31,244 bases of DNA, taken from IMG/VR virus record IMGVR_UViG_2585428013_000006; one strand, 5' to 3'. A program made the position numbers and the translations under genes. Position 1 is the stretch's first letter; each line of letters opens with the position of its first letter. The notes below the pieces were generated by a model, which was not told the DNA's origin, searched no databases, and saw only the letters and a list, made by a program, of their open reading frames with translations. Source of the stretch: a virus (lineage: Duplodnaviria > Heunggongvirae > Uroviricota > Caudoviricetes). Shown here piece by piece: positions 21,650 through 31,244 of this stretch.

Positions 21650-21677
21650 AAGGGCTTTGTTAGCCCTTAATTTTTTA
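21650..21677. terminator. Bidirectional hairpin terminator ending the accessory operon
   Basis: AAGGGCT-TTGTT-AGCCCTT flanked by A-run and T-run. Confidence 0.65.
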
Positions 21678-22313
21678 CCTTCCCCACTCCCGATCAGGAA
21701 GTCGATCTTTGAAGGCAAGGTAATCGTAAAACTCACGAGTATGGGAAAAGATACATTCGCACATTGCAGCGCCAGCGTTTGAAAGAGCCAATTTCAACAT
21801 GCCGTCAGGTTTAGGATTGCTCACCAAATTTTCATAAACTTGAGCCTGATCTGTACCGTGGACACATAACAAAAGTGACGACTCAAAGGTAACAACTGCA
21901 TCCAGTAAACGCTGATGAATCACGGAAAGGGCCGGTTGGTTTGCAACAATTGCAGTCAAACAGCGGCGATCACCCGTCATGAAAATGGCTTCTGGGTTCT
22001 CTATGCACGAGGCAAGCAATAGCTGTTCGCCTACATCAATTCCGGGCACACTCCCCAAAAGCTCAATAAGCTGTGAGTCCTGAACTTCCGGGATATCCTG
22101 TACAGATTCAATGAAGGCTCCCACCTGCTCGTAAACAACCTGGCTACCACACTTCCTGATTGCTTTATCAGGATTTTTCGGCAGAAGCTGAAAACGAGCA
22201 GCAGGGTTAATGAAGATCTGTTCGGGGGGTTGATTAAAAACCACTGGCAGTTGTGATAACAGATTGCACTGGGCCAGCTTCAAAATGACATCATTGTCAG
22301 AAAGAACAATCAC
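21675..22313 (-). CDS. Hypothetical protein, possible PIN-like nuclease fold; second gene of the accessory pair
   Basis: 212 aa; GTG start after tandem TAA TAA; N-terminal IVLSDNDVI and later IFMTGDRR resemble PIN acidic motifs (weak, by eye); AT-richer than the phage core. Confidence 0.45.
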   Translation of the reverse strand: MIVLSDNDVILKLAQCNLLSQLPVVFNQPPEQIFINPAARFQLLPKNPDKAIRKCGSQVVYEQVGAFIESVQDIPEVQDSQLIELLGSVPGIDVGEQLLLASCIENPEAIFMTGDRRCLTAIVANQPALSVIHQRLLDAVVTFESSLLLCVHGTDQAQVYENLVSNPKPDGMLKLALSNAGAAMCECIFSHTREFYDYLAFKDRLPDREWGR

Positions 22314-22316
22314 TTA

Positions 22317-23315
22317 TTATTCCCCGATTAGATTTTCTAAAACCTTAAGATCATCTTCGTGGATATTTTCTAAATCCATCCCGCTTTTCATCATGGCCCT
22401 CACAAAATCCTGATCTGAGTCTTCACCAGCACAGAGTGCTTTAACAGCGTTAACAGCAGCACCCCAGCAGTTCTGCGCGAAACCATAATTTAAAGCGATG
22501 TGAGTCGGGTCAATGTGATTATCACTTCCAAACTTTTGAGCCGCGCGAGCCAAGCCAGGCCCATTCAACCTGCCAGCGGTAGGAACGATACGTAAAGACT
22601 TCTGCCCCGAAATGACCTGGAAAGCGAATTCGTTGGCTTCTTTCTCTACGTTGTCCGTCGAAGCATTCTCAATTTTTGCATCAATATGGCACTGCCCGTT
22701 TTCTGCGTTCAGATGCCCTCTGGCGATATGGCCTAACTCATGCGCGAGATCAAACAGCATATAGCCATATTTCTGAGGCTGAGTAAGAACAATCACCGGG
22801 CGCCCGTGACTCATTAGTGCCAGCCCGGCCATTTTTTTGGCAGCTTGAGGGAAGCATTTTAGATAAACAACAGGAATGCCAATCGAATGACAGTATGTTA
22901 CCAGGCTATCTAACGATACCCATGATTCCTTAGTAAGAATCTGGGTTCTTATCGCCAAAGGATCAAGCACTGCACTGGAATCGTAAGGGACTTTGAAATT
23001 AGACGCGACAATACCGGCCGCAGTATAGGCAACAGCAGTAGCGATATCTAAATCGTTCTCGGCTACATTTTGGCGATGTTTATATTTATGGTTTCCACCA
23101 AAATTAAAGCATACCCCTTCGCTACCATCTTTCAGGCTATCCGGGAGAATGCTAAACATACGCGCAAGGTGCAGGCACGCATACTGGCGCCCTGATGGGG
23201 TGTCAGCAAGCTTCTCATCCCACCAGTCAGGCAACAACCTGCGGATGTAAGAGAGATTAAACCCGGCCCGGCCGAATTTAGAATATATCTGACTCATCTG
23301 ATTATGGTTCGTCAT
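22317..23315 (-). CDS. ImmA/IrrE-family (M78-like) zinc metallopeptidase domain protein with unknown N-terminal region
   Basis: 332 aa; HELGH followed by EKEANEFA, the arrangement typical of ImmA/IrrE peptidases; AGGAGG SD; occupies the P2 old/tin position. Confidence 0.7.
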   Translation of the reverse strand: MTNHNQMSQIYSKFGRAGFNLSYIRRLLPDWWDEKLADTPSGRQYACLHLARMFSILPDSLKDGSEGVCFNFGGNHKYKHRQNVAENDLDIATAVAYTAAGIVASNFKVPYDSSAVLDPLAIRTQILTKESWVSLDSLVTYCHSIGIPVVYLKCFPQAAKKMAGLALMSHGRPVIVLTQPQKYGYMLFDLAHELGHIARGHLNAENGQCHIDAKIENASTDNVEKEANEFAFQVISGQKSLRIVPTAGRLNGPGLARAAQKFGSDNHIDPTHIALNYGFAQNCWGAAVNAVKALCAGEDSDQDFVRAMMKSGMDLENIHEDDLKVLENLIGE

Positions 23316-23473: not shown

Positions 23474-25828
23474 TTAGTTCCGCGAAAATGCTGCTTTCAT
23501 CCTGTTCACAAGATCACTTGTTTTTTGCTTCGCCGCCATCACCTGCGACGGTAGCTTATCCAGCCCGGACGCTGCGCGGTTGCGCGATACCAGCCGCCCG
23601 TCCTGCACGGTCATAACAAGATCGCCGCACGCCACTGACGCACCGGCCATCATCGATCTGACCATTCCAGCGCTGGCATCAATCCCACGTAGCGCCAGCA
23701 GTTCACTGATCTGCTGCTCTTTGACTGATAGCCCTGCTCCCTCTTCCCGTTCCGGTGGCCGCGTTTTCCGCTTGGCGCGTACATCGTCACTTAATCGCTG
23801 CGCCAGTTCCCGTTTTTCTTGCCGTGAAAGAGCATCAAAATTCACCGTCTCGCCCACTTCGTGATCGGCATGTTCAAGACCGTCTGCACTTGTCGCGGGA
23901 TCCCGCGTACAGTTATTGACAGAACTCCGAGGGGCGGCGTTGCCGCCTGAAAAACCAACGTCAACGGCCACACCGTCAACGCTCTGGCGCTTCGGCACGA
24001 TTTTGTATTGAGTGGTGCGGGTGAAGATCAAAGAGTCATTGCCCGTAATCGGGCAGTAAATACCGGTGATTCGCTGGACGTTATCGCCGTAGGCGTTGCC
24101 GTTCTCAGTGGTTTCATAATTCAGACGAATGCGCAGCTTATCGCGCTCAACCAATGGGCCACCCTGGGCTAATACGTAGTTATCCCATTCGCCACCGTTA
24201 GCGGCCTGCCGGGCGGTTTCCAGTTCAGGGTGTAGCACCAGTTCGCGATCGCCCAGGCGGCGAAGTTCGCGATATACCGTGACCGGCGCACCGCCGATCT
24301 GCTGAAACTGACGAATAGCCCAGCGCGATGCCCACGCGCTAACGCGGAGTGACATTTCTTTCAGGTCTTCCCCGGTTTCGTCGTCCTTCTCACCATCCAG
24401 CGCGAAGCCGTCGATATTCTTCGAAATGTATTTCGCTATGTAGCCGGTTGCGCTGCCGTGGGCATCGTCGATCGGCACAACCTGAAAGCGGTTTTCCTGC
24501 GCTCCCGGTTCGTTGCCGTCTTCTTTCAGGGCATATTTACGGAAGATTTCGCGCGCCTGCTTGACGCATTCCGGGCGCATAAAAAGAAGTAAATGCCAGT
24601 GTGGCGTTGCATCGTGGTGCGGTTCGACCACGCGGAAACCAAAGACGCGGATCCCTTTTCTCTTCCACGCTGCGCGGGTTCTCGCCCAGACTTTGCAAAG
24701 ATATTGCTGCGTCTCGCGCGGCGACGCGCCACAGTATTTATTATTGCGGCGCCCGTTATGCTGCATGGAGTGGTAACGGGAAGGTGCTGTTAGCGTGTAG
24801 AAGTCACCGGCCAGCCCTTCCAGCTTCGCCAAATCTTCAAATCCGCGCATTCTCGTCATGAGTTCGCGGCGACGGTTGGCCGGATTGGCAACACTACCGG
24901 CGACTTTATCGATCAGTGAAATGCGTTCGCCCGTGTCCTGGTCTTCCAGTTCCATAGCCTTAAGGTATTCACGGTTAGCCTTTTTCTGGGCCAGCCATTC
25001 CGTGAGGCACGGGGCGCTACTGTATGGGGAAGATTTTTTCTGGACGTATCCCGCTGCGATCATCAAATGCTCACGCCACCTGGCATGGATACGGCGCAGG
25101 CGGTTTAACCACCACTGCGGTGACTCAAGGCGAAGAACCGCGCGTAACGCGTCCTCCGCTTCCAGTTCTTCATTGCAATACGCCGTCCAGCCGGGGATCG
25201 GCGTTTTCAGATGCACCGCCAGCGACGCAATACGGCCATAGCCCGAAAGCGCCGCGAACTCAGGATCTCCGGTGCGTGCCAACTGGTGATCGGACTCGCG
25301 TATAAACTCGCTCGTAAAGATATCGGCAAGCGTATAAGCCAGTCTTTTTAACTCTTTCTTCCCTGCCCAGAGCATACGGAAAAGCTGATCGCGGATTGGT
25401 AGCAGAATGCCGGGCATCACAGTGTCAGGCTGGTAAACACTGTTCACGCTATCAATACGCGTTAATACGTGGCGCTCAAAGGTATTAACCAGCCAGTGAT
25501 CTGCCGCTTTACGGTCTTTCGCGTCCAGTGCATCCAGCTTCGCGGCAAAGTGGCGGCGGATATACTGCGGAAGGGAAGCCAGACGGCGACGCAGCAGCTT
25601 GCTGCGCTCCGGCTTTTCGTCCTCCGCTACCAGTTCACTGAACGCAATATGCTTGCGGGTGCCGTCCGGCGTGAGATAGTCGAAACCATCCAGCCCCGGC
25701 GCTACATCAACGCCAATCGGCTGGTATGGTTTGTTCCCGCCATAAGCGTAAGGGATAGCATTATCAGTGCTACCCGGATACGATGGAGGTGGAGAAGGGG
25801 CGCGACGGCCACGGGTTGCCGTGGTCAT
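23474..25828 (-). CDS. A: Replication initiation endonuclease A (rolling-circle)
   Basis: 784 aa; P2 gpA-like size and position; ATGA overlap with the upstream methylase gene. Confidence 0.9.
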   Translation of the reverse strand: MTTATRGRRAPSPPPSYPGSTDNAIPYAYGGNKPYQPIGVDVAPGLDGFDYLTPDGTRKHIAFSELVAEDEKPERSKLLRRRLASLPQYIRRHFAAKLDALDAKDRKAADHWLVNTFERHVLTRIDSVNSVYQPDTVMPGILLPIRDQLFRMLWAGKKELKRLAYTLADIFTSEFIRESDHQLARTGDPEFAALSGYGRIASLAVHLKTPIPGWTAYCNEELEAEDALRAVLRLESPQWWLNRLRRIHARWREHLMIAAGYVQKKSSPYSSAPCLTEWLAQKKANREYLKAMELEDQDTGERISLIDKVAGSVANPANRRRELMTRMRGFEDLAKLEGLAGDFYTLTAPSRYHSMQHNGRRNNKYCGASPRETQQYLCKVWARTRAAWKRKGIRVFGFRVVEPHHDATPHWHLLLFMRPECVKQAREIFRKYALKEDGNEPGAQENRFQVVPIDDAHGSATGYIAKYISKNIDGFALDGEKDDETGEDLKEMSLRVSAWASRWAIRQFQQIGGAPVTVYRELRRLGDRELVLHPELETARQAANGGEWDNYVLAQGGPLVERDKLRIRLNYETTENGNAYGDNVQRITGIYCPITGNDSLIFTRTTQYKIVPKRQSVDGVAVDVGFSGGNAAPRSSVNNCTRDPATSADGLEHADHEVGETVNFDALSRQEKRELAQRLSDDVRAKRKTRPPEREEGAGLSVKEQQISELLALRGIDASAGMVRSMMAGASVACGDLVMTVQDGRLVSRNRAASGLDKLPSQVMAAKQKTSDLVNRMKAAFSRN

Positions 25829-26739
25829 TGCGCGATCTCCATGTAGGCTTTTAAGAAAGTAGCGGCTGCATAGATATTTACGGCGTTTCCGCTGGCGCGT
25901 AGTTTTCCCACTCTGGAGGGAACCCCATCAACCAGAGGCTTAAGGCCGGGTTTAACTGGCCTCCACTTTCCATCCCGGCAGAAAAGCCAGTCAGCAGATC
26001 CCCAGAATCCGTTAACCGGGCCGGGCCTGCTATCTGCGCTGTCACATCCAGCGTATCCGTTGACAGCTTCCCGTGCCGCATCCTTCCCCCCTGATACCCG
26101 CCCTTTCCATCCCTCGCCGCAGGGGTGGGCCAGCCCGCAAGACAAGCAAAGTCCTGTAAGTTCGACTGCCGACCAGCCAGCTTCCTGGCGATCACCTTCT
26201 CGGCATCCTGATAAGCGTTCTTCGTATTGCTCGCGGTTGGAGTCGGCCAGCCAGTAAGTACGCTCCCGGATGTGCGGCGCACCGACGCCCGCAGACGGAA
26301 ACGCCGACGCCCCGAAGGCATAGCCCAAACTTTCCATGTCAGTTTGTACAAGGTCGATCCAGACTTCTGCATCTTTGCTTGAAGACTGTTCGCCAAATAT
26401 AACGACAGGGCGTTGCTGGCCTGCAAGCCAATGAACGGCGGGCCATAGGTGCCGCTCATCATCAAATTGTTTTCCTTCGCCTGCCTGGCTGAAAGGTTGG
26501 CATGGGCAACTTGCTGTCCATACTGGGCGGTCGTCCGGCCATCCTGCAACGCGCAAAGCACGGGGCCAGCCTCCAAAACCTGCAAACAGGTGGATTTGAG
26601 AGAATCCTTTAATGTCATTTGGGGTTACATCCTCAACGGAACGGGTATCAACAACGCCGGAAGCGATAAGCCCGGCATCAATGAGGTTGCGCAGGTATTG
26701 CGCGGCAAAGGGATCGATTTCGTTGTAGTAGGCGGTCAC
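25825..26739 (-). CDS. DNA (cytosine-5) methyltransferase, orphan
   Basis: Motif I FAGFGG, motif IV PCQPFS, RER, C-terminal GNAV; GTG start with GGAGGGG SD; no restriction partner seen. Confidence 0.8.
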
Positions 26740-26930
26740 TGCTGCCCCTCCGCTTTGCGGTATTTCGTGATAAGCGGATCTACAATTCCGTCGAGAGTGG
26801 CCTTTATCGCCCGCGCCTCTTCCTGCCCATTCATCACGCCCACGTGCGTGGCTAACGCCAACGCTATCAACTTGATTTCGTTCAGTGCGTGCAGCGCGCC
26901 TTGATTAAATTCATGTGAGTTAGAAGGCAT
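26736..26930 (-). CDS. Hypothetical small protein
   Basis: 64 aa from ATG 26930 (GGAG RBS), packed between the Dam and C5-methylase genes. Confidence 0.4.
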   Translation of the reverse strand: MPSNSHEFNQGALHALNEIKLIALALATHVGVMNGQEEARAIKATLDGIVDPLITKYRKAEGQQ

Positions 26931-27873
26931 CGGCGTGATCTCCAAAGTCGGCGGAATAGCCAGCGCATGGGCCGCAGTCTGGGCAATAGCCACCACCATG
27001 ACGCCCGCAGCAGTCGCAGACAGGCAGCACGCCGATCACTTCTTTGGCCTTCTGGCGGTTTTCTTTGTCGGTGCTGACGGAACGTTGCACGCTGATTTCG
27101 TGCATCTTGAAGGGCTGATAAATCGCGCGGGTGGCTTCGGTGTCGCTGTTGGAAATGACGACCTTCACGCCATGCTTACGGTTAACTTCCAGCAGTGCCT
27201 GGACTAACTGGCGGTGGTTGTCTTCCGTGAATGGTTCGGTGTGGTATTGGGTAAAATCGGCTGTTTTGCTTTCAGGCAGGTAAGGCGGATCGCAGTAAAC
27301 GAGAACATCGCCACCCGTGACGACCTGTAGAGAACGCTGGAACGGCGCGCAAAGAAATATTGCCTTTGTATCGTTGGCCTTTTCGGCAAAGAGGCGGATT
27401 TCATTTTCAGGAAAGTAGACGCTCTTATACTTGCCAAACGGCACGTTAAAGCCGCTCTTCCGGCTGTATCGGCATAAGCCGTTATAACCGTGACGATTCA
27501 GATACAGGAATTGAGCAGCGCGCATAATGCACGCCATTTCAGCGCCATAACGCAACCCACCGCTTTTTACCGTACCCACCTGCTTATTGAACGCGGCGCG
27601 GACTTCGTTGTACCCCTGCGGGCTGTTCTTGCTGTTGAACAGTTCGCGGGCCGCATCGATCACTAAGTCCGGGTAACGGGTGACTTCCCGATACAGGTTA
27701 ATAAGATCCGGGTTGATATCAGCCAGCACATAGCGGCGGTACTCAGTCGCCAGAAATACCGATGCGCCACCTACGAACGGTTCGATCAGGCAGTCGGCTG
27801 TAGGAAGGTGCGGCAGCAGGTCAGGAAGGACACGGGTTTTACCCCCTGCCCATTTGATGAACGGGCGGATCAT
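26920..27873 (-). CDS. dam: Dam-family DNA adenine (N6) methyltransferase with Cys-rich C-terminal extension
   Basis: KWAGGK, EPF.GG.SVFL, DPPY; colinear with E. coli Dam; extra C-terminal tail CDCCGRHGGGYCPDCGPC. Confidence 0.9.
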   Translation of the reverse strand: MIRPFIKWAGGKTRVLPDLLPHLPTADCLIEPFVGGASVFLATEYRRYVLADINPDLINLYREVTRYPDLVIDAARELFNSKNSPQGYNEVRAAFNKQVGTVKSGGLRYGAEMACIMRAAQFLYLNRHGYNGLCRYSRKSGFNVPFGKYKSVYFPENEIRLFAEKANDTKAIFLCAPFQRSLQVVTGGDVLVYCDPPYLPESKTADFTQYHTEPFTEDNHRQLVQALLEVNRKHGVKVVISNSDTEATRAIYQPFKMHEISVQRSVSTDKENRQKAKEVIGVLPVCDCCGRHGGGYCPDCGPCAGYSADFGDHADAF

Positions 27874-27874
27874 T

Positions 27875-28087
27875 TTACAGGACTCCGTAAGGGGAAGATG
27901 GAACAGCCGGACGCTGCAACGCCGTGGTAAGGCGCTGGCGCATGTCGTCGATAAAGCAGGAAACAGAGGGATCGTCAGAAGAAAGGGTTAACTCACCATC
28001 GCGGCGGGTTTTAATCGTCAGCCCTTCACGCTCAACAGCAGGTAAGAGAACGTGCAGGATGAAGTTATATTGATCGCGTTTAGTCAT
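27875..28087 (-). CDS. Hypothetical small protein
   Basis: 70 aa; ATG with GAGG RBS; 1 nt before the Dam start. Confidence 0.4.
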   Translation of the reverse strand: MTKRDQYNFILHVLLPAVEREGLTIKTRRDGELTLSSDDPSVSCFIDDMRQRLTTALQRPAVPSSPYGVL

Positions 28088-28129: not shown

Positions 28130-28312
28130 TTACTGGTGATCCGCTGATTGGTTAGCTGACTTGAGGGCAGGCCAGACAAGGAGAAGAAGAGCGCCAACGA
28201 AGAAGGCGTCGCCAATCACCGAAAGCAGGTAGCTGGTGAAATCCACTGCTACGACCATGAAGGCCAACAGCAGGGCCAGCGCCGGACGTAGTGAATCCAG
28301 CACGCGCAGCAT
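28130..28312 (-). CDS. Small membrane protein with two predicted helices, co-translated with the TerB-like gene
   Basis: 60 aa, mostly hydrophobic; ATGA overlap with the upstream stop; hairpin at 28105-28126 downstream. Confidence 0.45.
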   Translation of the reverse strand: MLRVLDSLRPALALLLAFMVVAVDFTSYLLSVIGDAFFVGALLLLVWPALKSANQSADHQ

Positions 28313-28746
28313 CAGAGATAATCCTCAACACGCAGCCCCAGACGGCGCCCGACCTCTTCCAGCACCTTCTGTTCTTCTGGTTCGATCTGGCCGTCCGCTT
28401 CGGCGATAGTCAGCATGTTGACGAAGACTTCTTCGGCTTCTTTCGGATCGTTTTTGATGTCGTCTATTTCGCGCAAAATGTTCATGCGGCCAACGCGGAA
28501 GCCAGCTTCAAGCTGTTCCGTATAGCGGTTGATGGTGGATGTAATTTCATTGCCGAAATGCGCAAGGCGCGGGTTAGAGCGGATAAGCTGATCCAGCTTG
28601 CTGGTTTCTTCTTTTTCGATCTCGCCATCGGCGGCAGATACCAAAAGACAACCGCCGACAATAGCTTCCATAAGATCGCGATTTTCCACTTTCTTAAGTT
28701 CAACTTTTGCCGCTGCTACTTTTTTTCCAAACAGTTTATTAAACAT
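28312..28746 (-). CDS. TerB-family (tellurite-resistance TerB-like) domain protein
   Basis: 144 aa from ATG 28746 (AAGGA RBS); two acidic repeats, SAADGEIEKEE and AEADGQIEPEEQ, typical of TerB domains. Confidence 0.65.
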   Translation of the reverse strand: MFNKLFGKKVAAAKVELKKVENRDLMEAIVGGCLLVSAADGEIEKEETSKLDQLIRSNPRLAHFGNEITSTINRYTEQLEAGFRVGRMNILREIDDIKNDPKEAEEVFVNMLTIAEADGQIEPEEQKVLEEVGRRLGLRVEDYL

Positions 28747-28840
28747 GCTATTTATCCTTTTTAGGATGAGTGAAAGCGCCATCACTTAATTAAGTGACGA
28801 CAGTGAAGACTGTTTTTTAATTAATATTTAACTGGCGTTG

Positions 28841-30263: not shown

Positions 30264-31244
30264 ATGTCGATTAAGAAGCTCGAAGGTGGTCAATATGAAG
30301 TGGACGTATGGCCGCGCGGACGTAACGGAAAACGTATCCGCAGGCGATTTGAGAAGAAACAAGAAGCAGTTCTTTTTGAGCGTTATGTATTAGCCAACGC
30401 CGACAAAAAAGAATGGCTGGGCGCGAGCGTTGACCGCCGCACCTTAAGCGAGTTGTTAGATACCTGGTGGCTGCTATATGGACAGACTCAGGAAAATGGC
30501 GAGATTGAAAAGCGGCACCTGAATAAAACAATCAAGGCGCTTGGTGATCCAGCCGTTAACCGACTGAACAAGCGAATGATTGCACAGCACCGAAGCCAAC
30601 GGCTGGAAGACGGTATCAGCGCAGCAACGATCAACCGGGATATTTACCGTTTGTCCGGGATGTTCAGCACGTTGATAAAGCTGGAAGAGTTCAGAAAGGA
30701 AAACCCCTGTAAGGGTCTGGAACCACTGAAAGAAGCGCCGCCAGCTATGACTTATCTCGCCAAATCAGAGATCAGCAAATTGCTGGATACTCTGACCGGC
30801 GACGATCGACGTGTAGCACTGCTATGCCTCAGCACTGGCGCACGCTGGGGTGAAGGGAGCACGCTGCGAGGTGAGCAGGTTAATCACGGGCGTGTGACGT
30901 TCCTTAAGACCAAAAATGGGAAAAAGCGCACGGTTCCGATATCGGAAGAACTGGAGAAAGAGATCAAGACCAGCGACACCGGGCCACTGTTCAAAGTTGA
31001 CTATGAAAACTTCTGCGAACGGCTCAGGTTGGTTAAGCCTGACTTACCACGCGGGCAGGCCACACACGTGCTTAGACATACTTTTGCAAGCTGGTTCATG
31101 ATGAACGGGGGGAACATTATTGCGTTACAGCAAATTCTGGGGCACGCCAGCATACAACAGACGATGGTTTATGCTCACCTTGCACCTGATTACCTGCAAC
31201 ACGCAGTAACGTTAAACCCTCTTGGCGGCGGGCTGACGGTGTGA
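30264..31244 (+). CDS. int: Tyrosine integrase
   Basis: 326 aa; C-terminal H-x-x-R (LRHTFAS) and catalytic Tyr (MVYAHL); GGAGGG RBS; stop is the last codon of the window. Confidence 0.9.
   Translation: MSIKKLEGGQYEVDVWPRGRNGKRIRRRFEKKQEAVLFERYVLANADKKEWLGASVDRRTLSELLDTWWLLYGQTQENGEIEKRHLNKTIKALGDPAVNRLNKRMIAQHRSQRLEDGISAATINRDIYRLSGMFSTLIKLEEFRKENPCKGLEPLKEAPPAMTYLAKSEISKLLDTLTGDDRRVALLCLSTGARWGEGSTLRGEQVNHGRVTFLKTKNGKKRTVPISEELEKEIKTSDTGPLFKVDYENFCERLRLVKPDLPRGQATHVLRHTFASWFMMNGGNIIALQQILGHASIQQTMVYAHLAPDYLQHAVTLNPLGGGLTV

What the first reader, a model, noticed from the sequence alone, without database searches (positions are those of the whole stretch)
26920..27873. Dam methyltransferase with an unusual Cys-rich C-terminal tail
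The first roughly 275 aa are colinear with E. coli Dam (KWAGGK, DPPY). An extra 40 or so residues end in CDCCGRHGGGYCPDCGPC, resembling a small zinc ribbon. This could add DNA or protein targeting to the methylase.
Basis: partly seen in the sequence, partly recalled or inferred. Interest (0 to 1): 0.5.

Follow-up and report, generated by a model that had tools for sequence, protein, structure and literature searches.

The report
Prophage Dam methylase with shared zinc-knuckle tail
This is an ordinary GATC-type Dam DNA methylase of a P2-like prophage, but its short four-cysteine tail is standard in this phage Dam group and is the same small module found in the uncharacterised part of the RecE recombination nuclease, which suggests a shared docking tag rather than a DNA-binding add-on.

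Summary
An intact 317-codon ORF lies on the minus strand at 26920..27873. It is a Dam-family N6-adenine methylase (E. coli Dam E 5e-70; KWAGGK, DPPY and GATC-contact residues conserved). It carries a 36-residue tail (282-317) with six Cys.

The tail is not a frameshift artefact and is not unique. Of 117 full-length relatives (55-97% identity, all checked contexts P2/186-like prophages), 78 carry C-x2-C-x6-7-C-x2-C with four invariant Cys. Their codons vary synonymously. Chromosomal Dam lacks the tail.

The new result is that the knuckle is a portable module. It recurs in E. coli K-12 RecE (C517-C531, inside the N-terminal region reviewed as of unknown function). It also occurs in lambdoid ExoVIII-N/DnaQ-like exonucleases, in a nuclease-less RecE-like protein, and in small early proteins of Mu-like phages.

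The tail is acidic (5 D/E, 1 K/R), predicted disordered after the knuckle, and ends in Phe, as do many relatives' tails.

Best reading: an orphan GATC methylase carrying a Zn(Cys)4 knuckle plus acidic tip that docks on a protein partner. The partner is unknown and the docking is inferred. A DNA-targeting role is disfavoured. Moderate interest; a new variant of a known kind.

The parts
26920..27873 (-). dam ORF, 317 codons plus stop
   Evidence: ORF list; PF02086 214 bits; TIGR00571 272.6 bits against cutoff 114.85; E. coli Dam E 5e-70; model TM 0.92 to 4rtn/2g1p
27079..27852 (-). D12-class N6-adenine methyltransferase domain (residues 8-265)
   Evidence: Pfam envelope; AF2 pLDDT mostly above 90
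27838..27855 (-). KWAGGK (residues 7-12), N-terminal Dam motif; K7 aligns with E. coli Dam K9
   Evidence: Read from the sequence; alignment
27280..27291 (-). DPPY catalytic motif IV (residues 195-198)
   Evidence: Read from the sequence: GAT CCG CCT TAC; aligns with E. coli D181-Y184
27526..27582 (-). Clade-specific insertion relative to E. coli Dam (about residues 98-116), variable among relatives
   Evidence: Gap in alignments; pLDDT 53 for residues 101-110
26923..27030 (-). C-terminal tail, residues 282-317 (VLPVCDCCGRHGGGYCPDCGPCAGYSADFGDHADAF)
   Evidence: Lies beyond the Dam alignment; no Pfam family at E up to 10
26974..27018 (-). Cys4 knuckle C286-x2-C289-x7-C297-x2-C300 (CxxCG...CPDCG), presumed Zn(Cys)4 site
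   Evidence: Four Cys invariant in the aligned tails; synonymous codon variation; 13/21 identity to RecE, pairwise E 1e-6; pLDDT 90 falling to 68
26923..26958 (-). Acidic flexible tip YSADFGDHADAF ending in Phe
   Evidence: pLDDT below 50 for residues 303-317; whole tail has 5 acidic and 1 basic residue; 19 of 58 distinct C-terminal decapeptide clusters in the clade end in F
26990..27010 (.). Mosaic joint: DNA identity above 90% to phiT5282H, SEN4/5 and E. coli prophages stops here, inside the knuckle codons
   Evidence: Match limits; DNA alignment
27875..28087 (-). Upstream 70-aa ORF (phrog_21140); its stop is 1 nt before the dam ATG, so translational coupling is likely
   Evidence: same neighbour in phiT5282H, SEN5 and E. 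coli prophages
26736..26930 (-). Downstream 64-aa ORF whose ATG lies inside the last dam codons (11-nt overlap); unknown function
   Evidence: no family hit
25825..26739 (-). C5-cytosine-methyltransferase-like gene, second methylase of the operon
   Evidence: PF00145 42.8 bits; phrog_363 E 2e-78
23474..25828 (-). P2 gpA-like replication initiator (nicking at origin); places dam in the early replication operon
   Evidence: phrog_91 E 8e-263; same order in relatives

Best explanation
The gene encodes an orphan GATC-specific Dam-family methylase in the early (replication) operon of a P2/186-like prophage. Its catalytic core is canonical. The last 36 residues form an autonomous accessory. It consists of a rubredoxin-type Cys4 knuckle (C286, C289, C297, C300) that presumably binds one zinc ion, followed by a flexible acidic peptide ending in Phe. 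The knuckle is a portable module that temperate phages of three kinds (P2-like, lambdoid/Rac, Mu-like) attach to different early DNA-transaction proteins. I infer that it is a protein-protein docking tag. It would tether the methylase to a conserved partner at sites of phage DNA synthesis or processing, most likely a host replication or repair hub. It would not change sequence specificity or bind DNA itself. Shown: Dam identity, tail conservation under selection, homology of the knuckle to RecE residues 517-531, modular distribution, acidity and predicted disorder. Inferred: zinc binding, the docking function and the identity of the partner.
For: Dam identity. It is an orphan: there is no nuclease neighbour and the best PADLOC model is oMTase. 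Tail conserved: 78 of 117 relatives have C-x2-C-x6-7-C-x2-C, and the four Cys are invariant in the aligned tails. Cys, Gly, Pro, Asp and Arg codons differ synonymously between the window, phiT5282H, SEN5, Yersinia and Pectobacterium genes. All contexts examined are int-repressor-Cox-Fil-...-Dam-...-gpA prophages. Portability: a tail-only profile finds 'exonuclease' fragments and small proteins. tblastn of the window's own 36-aa tail hits exodeoxyribonuclease VIII genes at E 2e-5. Pairwise BLASTP to Rac-SA53 RecE gives 13/21 identity, E 1e-6. In K-12 MG1655 RecE the module is at C517-C531 followed by GAVMGDATYQETF. An exhaustive HMM search gives 51 representatives, including Exonuc_VIII-N+DUF3799, Exonuc_VIII-N+Rv2179c-like, nuclease-less RecE-like, Dam and orphan small proteins. 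Two of the small proteins lie in Mu-like early regions. In IMG/VR, 120 stretches carry the module: 80 DnaQ-type, 30 RecE-type, 1 RecE-2 and 9 Dam. RecE and Dam module DNA is only about 55-67% identical, so the conservation is at protein level. Against DNA binding and for docking: the tail has 5 acidic and 1 basic residue. The module sits in acidic Q/E-rich linkers of RecE. AF2 gives pLDDT 90 falling to 68 over the knuckle and below 50 after residue 303. C-termini of the clade are enriched for acidic residues plus a terminal F/L/W.
Against: No partner was identified and no binding or metal data exist. AF2 confidence for the isolated module is low (pLDDT 52-58). The window's tail is the divergent 'PCAGYS' subtype and lacks the VMGDATYxEMF segment, which is the most conserved part of the module elsewhere. 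Its function may therefore differ from that in RecE. Some clade members have no tail or unrelated tails, so the tail is dispensable for a functional prophage Dam. The enrichment of terminal Phe is partly due to shared ancestry.
Confidence: 0.55

Rival explanations
1. One reading: the tail is a DNA-binding zinc ribbon that adds DNA affinity or targeting to the methylase.
For: Cys4 knuckles and zinc ribbons often contact nucleic acids (general knowledge). The tail follows the last core strand directly, and residues 281-290 have high pLDDT. All carriers are DNA enzymes.
Against: The tail has net charge about -4, with one Arg. The module is embedded in strongly acidic linkers in RecE-type proteins. 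It is only about 16 structured residues. GATC-contact residues of the core are already complete.
Confidence: 0.12
2. The knuckle is a structural staple or oligomerisation element. It would stabilise or dimerise the phage enzyme, with no external partner.
For: The first tail residues are modelled confidently against the core (pLDDT about 90 for 281-290). Small Zn(Cys)4 sites often serve structure only (general knowledge).
Against: The same module occurs in long disordered linkers and at the ends of unrelated small proteins, so it does not co-evolve with one fold. Tail-less Dam relatives exist in otherwise similar prophages.
Confidence: 0.15
3. The acidic tail is an intramolecular regulator or turnover signal. 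It would act as a DNA mimic that folds back on the DNA-binding cleft, or as a degron limiting a potentially mutagenic methylase. The knuckle would serve as a hinge.
For: The tip is acidic, disordered and ends in Phe. Precedents exist for acidic C-terminal tips that compete with nucleic acid: Hfq (PMC5606850, seen) and SSB and T7 gp2.5 (general knowledge).
Against: In RecE-type proteins the module is internal, not terminal.
Confidence: 0.13
4. The extension is an artefact: a sequencing frameshift or read-through into non-coding or neighbouring sequence.
For: RefSeq annotates the near-identical E. coli prophage genes as two pseudogene fragments. DNA homology to the nearest relatives breaks inside the tail.
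Against: Those E. coli ORFs translate without interruption. The tail is kept in frame across dozens of genera with synonymous changes. The break is a recombination joint between two tail subtypes, both in frame.
Confidence: 0.02

Closest known systems
E. coli chromosomal Dam (PDB 2G1P, 4RTN) and the Dam family TIGR00571 / PF02086
   Same: Same fold (TM 0.92), about 48% identity, KWAGGK and DPPY motifs, and conserved residues at the positions that contact GATC in E. coli Dam. The expected product is m6A in GATC.
   Different: Prophage-borne orphan. It scores below the NCBIfam equivalog cutoff for host Dam (278.7 against 441). It has an internal insertion of about 14-19 residues and the 36-residue Cys4/acidic tail, which no solved Dam has.
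Dam of Peduoviridae phages phiT5282H (gp17, 323 aa) and SEN4/SEN5
   Same: 95% and 81% identity, the same operon position and the same knuckle.
   Different: Sequence after CPDCG differs: the window has PCAGYSADFGDHADAF, phiT5282H has AVMGDATYNAMVAAGTFDDLEAF, and SEN5 has a second Cys-rich block. The gene downstream differs too, because of a mosaic joint at about 27001.
RecE / exonuclease VIII of Rac and lambdoid prophages (N-terminal region, residues 1-563, function unknown)
   Same: Contains the same knuckle: K-12 RecE C517-C531, CNACGQTGGDNCPDCG, followed by AVMGDATYQETF. Pairwise E is 1e-6 to the window tail.
   Different: The module is internal, in an acidic linker upstream of a PDDEXK or DnaQ-like nuclease domain. 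The rest of the protein is unrelated to Dam. The 2023 review PMC11611040 calls this region of unknown function and does not mention zinc.
Rubredoxin-type / DnaJ-type zinc knuckles (CxxCG ... CPxCG; CxxCxGxG)
   Same: The two-knuckle Cys4 signature with Gly after the second Cys of each pair. Weak profile matches to rubredoxin and zinc-ribbon chains.
   Different: Only 7 residues separate the knuckles. No significant match to any Pfam zinc-ribbon family or solved structure. Metal binding is untested.
SSB C-terminal acidic tip (DDDIPF)
   Same: A disordered acidic peptide ending in Phe. Type-A tails of relatives (...TFDDLEAF) resemble ...DFDDDIPF. The role of the SSB tip as a docking peptide is established (PMC5872125 and PMC10018359, seen).
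   Different: The resemblance is by eye only. The window's tip (DFGDHADAF) matches less well. No binding test was done. This is a lead, not a membership claim.

Membership tests
Dam family N6-adenine DNA methyltransferase (PF02086 / TIGR00571) | Profile score above the curated cutoff | tested here: met
   PF02086 scores 214 bits against cutoff 22. TIGR00571 scores 272.6 against 114.85.
Dam family N6-adenine DNA methyltransferase (PF02086 / TIGR00571) | Catalytic DPPY (motif IV) and the AdoMet-binding FxGxG/acidic residue | tested here: met
   D195-P196-P197-Y198, F33, G35 and D52 align with E. coli D181-Y184, F35, G37 and D54.
Dam family N6-adenine DNA methyltransferase (PF02086 / TIGR00571) | GATC-contacting residues of E. 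coli Dam (K9, Y119, N120, L122, R124, P134, Y138; residue list recalled from the 2G1P literature) | tested here: met
   The aligned residues are K7, Y130, N131, L133, R135, P145 and Y149, all identical. N126 is replaced by S and R137 by K.
Dam family N6-adenine DNA methyltransferase (PF02086 / TIGR00571) | Actual methylation of GATC | not testable with these tools
   Needs DpnI/DpnII/MboI digestion or SMRT/nanopore methylome of a dam- host expressing the gene.
Chromosomal Dam equivalog (NCBIfam NF008152 / PRK10904) | Score above the equivalog cutoff | tested here: not met
   278.7 bits against cutoff 441. It is a phage paralogue, not the host housekeeping Dam.
Type II restriction-modification methylase | Adjacent cognate restriction endonuclease | tested here: not met
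   The neighbours are a 70-aa ORF, a 64-aa ORF, a C5-MTase-like gene and gpA. The best PADLOC model is 'orphan methyltransferase'.
Zn(Cys)4 knuckle / zinc ribbon | Four conserved Cys in two CxxC pairs | tested here: met
   C286, C289, C297 and C300 are invariant in the aligned tails. The extra Cys (C288, C303) vary.
Zn(Cys)4 knuckle / zinc ribbon | Match to a curated zinc-ribbon family or solved structure | tested here: not met
   No Pfam hit at E up to 10. PDB profile search gives only insignificant generic CPxCG matches.
Zn(Cys)4 knuckle / zinc ribbon | Stoichiometric metal binding | not testable with these tools
   Needs ICP-MS or a PAR assay.
RecE-linker knuckle module (undescribed; defined here by profile A5) | Significant sequence match of the window tail to the module in non-Dam carriers | tested here: met
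   BLASTP 13/21 identity, E 1e-6 against Rac-SA53 RecE. tblastn E 2e-5 to exoVIII genes in 2.3 Gb of phage DNA.
RecE-linker knuckle module (undescribed; defined here by profile A5) | The VMGDATYxEMF segment following the knuckle | tested here: not met
   The window has PCAGYSADF instead (subtype B). The same subtype also ends a non-Dam 325-aa protein, P0176.
SSB-Ct-like docking tip | Acidic C-terminal peptide ending in Phe that binds SSB-partner pockets | tested here: inconclusive
   The composition fits, but the sequence match is loose and binding cannot be tested.

The most novel reading that the evidence does not exclude
The Cys4 knuckle, with its following short helix or acidic tip, is an undescribed, widely shared phage 'address tag'. 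It would be recognised by one conserved host protein of Gammaproteobacteria, for example a replisome or SSB-network component. P2-like, lambdoid/Rac and Mu-like phages would use it to bring methylases, 5'-3' and 3'-5' recombination exonucleases and small early proteins to the same place. If so, it would also give the first functional handle on the N-terminal two-thirds of RecE, whose role (including its stimulation of linear-linear recombineering) is unexplained.
Probability: 0.25. Interest if true: 0.75.

Novelty: new variant of a known kind. Interest (0 to 1): 0.5.

Why it matters
Phage Dam methylases are usually treated as plain copies of host Dam. Here the standard form in a large prophage clade carries an extra module. 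That module links it to RecE-family recombination nucleases and to Mu-like early proteins. If the module is a docking tag, it would explain how these enzymes are concentrated on replicating phage DNA. It would also give a testable function to a 28-residue element in the uncharacterised region of RecE, a protein widely used in recombineering. On the practical side, the tail appears to mislead automated annotation: intact genes are labelled as pseudogene fragments in RefSeq E. coli genomes.

Tried and rejected
1. Frameshift or read-through artefact: rejected.
2. Known domain for the tail: Pfam at E up to 10 gave nothing except a spurious 0.24 hit. A PDB profile search gave only generic CPxCG matches.
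3. Tail-less Dam relatives as split genes: the 68-aa ORF after the 280-aa Erwinia Dam has no Cys knuckle, so they are truly tail-less.
4. Recent DNA transfer between recE and dam: module DNA is only 55-67% identical, so rejected.
5. Literature: six full-text searches and two papers read found no description of a zinc site in phage Dam or in RecE. One search failed on a short term. The held library lacks most subscription journals.
6. AF2 of a 79-aa Mu-like carrier (P0128) to define the module fold: confidence was too low (pLDDT 52-58). It showed only a short helix on DATYNEMF, so no fold search was run on it.
7. The search for related loci with the module alignment failed because no stretch was conserved enough. 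It was replaced by a degenerate DNA pattern scan.
8. The exact tail plus downstream combination of the window was not found in complete E. coli genomes. The source organism remains unidentified, probably another Enterobacterales genus.

Full report
OBSERVATION. The ORF is real and intact, but it lies on the minus strand: 26920..27873, 317 codons. KWAGGK (residues 7-12) and DPPY (residues 195-198) can be read directly from the sequence. Pfam PF02086 covers residues 8-265 at 214 bits. NCBIfam TIGR00571 (Dam family) scores 272.6 against a cutoff of 114.85. E. coli Dam structures align to residues 3-282 at E 5e-70. An AF2 model built on an 89-sequence alignment (mean pLDDT 83.6) superposes on E. 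coli Dam with TM 0.92, normalised to the target. The residues that I recall as contacting GATC in E. coli Dam (K9, Y119, N120, L122, R124, P134, Y138) are all identical in the alignment. GATC specificity is therefore expected, by inference. The protein scores below the equivalog cutoff for chromosomal Dam (278.7 against 441). It has no nuclease neighbour, and its best PADLOC model is 'orphan methyltransferase'.

Beyond residue 281 come 36 residues: VLPVCDCCGRHGGGYCPDCGPCAGYSADFGDHADAF. An internal insertion of about 14-19 residues (residues 98-116) also distinguishes the protein from E. coli Dam.

CONTEXT. The window is a P2/186-like prophage. The gene order on the minus strand is:
- a TerB-like gene (28312..28785);
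- a 70-aa ORF (27875..28087, phrog_21140) whose stop is 1 nt before the dam ATG;
- dam;
- a 64-aa ORF (26736..26930) that starts inside the last dam codons;
- a C5-methylase-like gene (25825..26739);
- a gpA-like replication initiator (23474..25828).
An integrase lies at 30264..31244 on the plus strand. The nearest phages are Enterobacter phage phiT5282H and Salmonella phages SEN4/SEN5 (Peduoviridae), with dam in the same position.

IS THE TAIL AN ARTEFACT OR A PECULIARITY? It is neither.
- Among the 120 best clusters (55-97% identity; Citrobacter, Enterobacter, Klebsiella, Salmonella, Serratia, Yersinia, Pectobacterium, Dickeya, Erwinia, Pantoea, Edwardsiella and others), 117 are full length.
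- Of those, 78 have C-x2-C-x6-7-C-x2-C after the conserved EVIG. About a dozen more have other Cys-rich tails, 6 have almost no tail, and some have an unrelated W-x-G-F-D-P-A tail.
- The four Cys (C286, C289, C297, C300) are invariant in tail alignments. C288 and C303 vary.
- Codon tables for five genes show TGC/TGT, GGN, CCN, GAY and CGN changes that keep the amino acids. This indicates purifying selection in this frame.
- Contexts looked up for Yersinia, Pectobacterium and Erwinia relatives are all P2/186-like early operons.
- The 280-aa tail-less Erwinia form is not a split gene.

DNA identity with the closest relatives stops at about 27001, inside the knuckle codons. After that point the window switches from the 'AVMGDATY...' tail subtype to a 'PCAGYS...' subtype, in frame. 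This is a mosaic joint, not an error. RefSeq labels the near-identical E. coli prophage genes as two pseudogene fragments, yet the ORF translates without interruption. That is an annotation artefact.

WHAT THE TAIL IS. No Pfam family and no solved structure matches it. A profile of the tails alone found fragments named 'exonuclease' and small unnamed proteins. Following this lead gave several results:
- tblastn places the module in exodeoxyribonuclease VIII (recE) genes of Rac-type and lambdoid phages, Stx phages, an Actinobacillus phage, and hypothetical genes of Aeromonas phages.
- The window's own 36-residue tail hits these genes at E 2e-5 in 2.3 Gb of phage DNA.
- It aligns to Rac-SA53 RecE with 13 of 21 identities, pairwise E 1e-6.
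- In E. coli K-12 MG1655 RecE the module is C517-x2-C-x7-C-x2-C531 followed by GAVMGDATYQETF. This lies inside the N-terminal region (1-563) that a 2023 review calls of unknown function. That review does not mention zinc or cysteine (PMC11611040).
- An exhaustive HMM search of 1.84 billion representatives found 51 proteins at E up to 1e-3. A few multi-stretch hits are unrelated repetitive proteins.
- Pfam and PHROG scans show that the single-stretch carriers are of several kinds: Exonuc_VIII-N + PDDEXK (DUF3799), Exonuc_VIII-N + DnaQ-like (Rv2179c-like) exonuclease, a nuclease-less RecE-like protein, Dam, and at least ten small proteins. For the small proteins, the only family match is the module itself.
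- Two of the small proteins lie in Mu-like early regions next to Kil, GemA, DUF3164 and MuA/MuB.
- Module DNA of recE and dam is only 55-67% identical, so the similarity is maintained at protein level.
- The 'PCAGYS' subtype of the window also ends an unrelated 325-aa protein (P0176).

HOW IT PROBABLY WORKS. The signature CxxCG...CPxCG is that of rubredoxin-type zinc knuckles (general knowledge). Zinc binding is inferred, not shown. AF2 models residues 281-290 at pLDDT about 90, residues 291-300 at 68, and residues 303-317 below 50. In a Mu-like carrier the segment DATYNEMF is predicted as a short helix, at low confidence. The window's tail has 5 acidic residues and 1 basic residue. In RecE the module sits in an acidic Q/E-rich linker.

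Across the clade, tails are acidic and end in a hydrophobic residue. Of the knuckle tails, 58 of 78 end in F, L or W. Of 58 distinct C-terminal decapeptide clusters, 19 end in F. This is partly due to shared ancestry. Type-A tips such as ...TFDDLEAF resemble the SSB tip ...DFDDDIPF, a known docking peptide (PMC5872125 and PMC10018359). That resemblance is a lead only.

Three features argue for a protein-protein docking tag aimed at a conserved, probably host, partner. The element is small and autonomous. It is nearly invariant on unrelated carriers from three phage lineages. It is acidic. These features argue against a DNA-binding appendage. The rivals remain open: a DNA-binding ribbon, a structural or dimerisation staple, or an autoinhibitory or turnover tail. 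I could not identify the partner.

COMPARISON AND NOVELTY. The enzyme is a member of the Dam family; all sequence-level criteria tested were met. It is not the host Dam equivalog and not part of an R-M pair. The tail is a clade-wide accessory absent from every solved Dam. The full-text searches that bore on this found no description of it, nor of a zinc site in RecE. The held library is incomplete, however. I rate it a new variant of a known kind, of moderate interest. The Dam part is ordinary. The shared module is a small but real lead, with a direct experimental path through RecE and Dam tail pull-downs.

Noticed in passing
window 25825..26739 (-): A 304-aa GTG-start C5-cytosine-methylase-like gene (PF00145 partial match, phrog_363 E 2e-78) lies two genes downstream of dam, after the 64-aa ORF, and overlaps the gpA start by 4 nt. 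This makes two different DNA methylases in one P2-like early operon. The same Dam plus 304-aa MTase pair occurs in a Yersinia prophage (L008).
   Followed up: partly
window 26736..26930 (-): A 64-aa ORF whose ATG lies inside the last dam codons (GATGCCTTCTAA read as ATG CCT TCT AAC). It has no family hit. It lies downstream of the mosaic joint, and other prophages carry different genes at this position.
   Followed up: partly
window 21675..23315 (-): A 332-aa M78-peptidase-like protein (weak matches to PD-Lambda-2_B, CapP and RmrA defence models) plus a 212-aa protein (phrog_15597), just downstream of gpA. This is a known P2 variable hotspot. The same pair follows gpA in a Pectobacterium prophage (L010). 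It may be a defence or regulatory cassette.
   Followed up: partly
window 28312..28785 (-): A TerB-family protein (PF05099, phrog_632) is encoded in the early region between Fil-like genes and dam. It is conserved in related E. coli prophages (L014, L015).
   Followed up: no
L014 1400..2384 and L015 (E. coli AR_0128 and 0H26 prophages): RefSeq annotates the dam gene as two pseudogene fragments ('missing C-terminus'), but the 323-codon ORF including the Cys tail is uninterrupted. This is a probable annotation artefact caused by the tail.
   Followed up: yes
window about 26990..27010: DNA identity above 90% to phiT5282H, SEN4/5 and E. coli prophages ends inside the knuckle codons. The conserved knuckle sequence appears to serve as a recombination joint between tail and downstream-gene variants.
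   Followed up: partly
P0072, P0081, P0092, P0097, P0100, P0106, P0107, P0116, P0117, P0119 (Dam relatives): An alternative, Cys-poor tail class with a conserved W/M-x-G-F-D-P-A...G-x-D motif. By eye, it recalls the first strand of RNase-H-like/terminase nuclease folds. Its function is unknown.
   Followed up: no
L010 4426..5004; L011 4432..5004; L012 4444..5004: In several P2-like prophages a stand-alone Rv2179c-like (DnaQ-type) 3'-5' exonuclease gene sits immediately upstream of dam and overlaps it by 4 nt. In lambdoid phages the same exonuclease domain is fused to the ExoVIII N-terminal region and the knuckle module. This may be a functional link between the exonuclease and the module.
   Followed up: no
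window 27526..27582 (-), residues 98-116: A clade-specific insertion in the helical part of Dam. It is poorly modelled (pLDDT about 53) and differs between the window/phiT5282H and SEN5.
   Followed up: no
L016 6839..7001 (E. coli K-12 Rac prophage): ydaE, annotated 'zinc-binding protein', lies two genes upstream of recE in Rac. It is unrelated in sequence to the knuckle module, as far as the partial translation shows.
   Followed up: no
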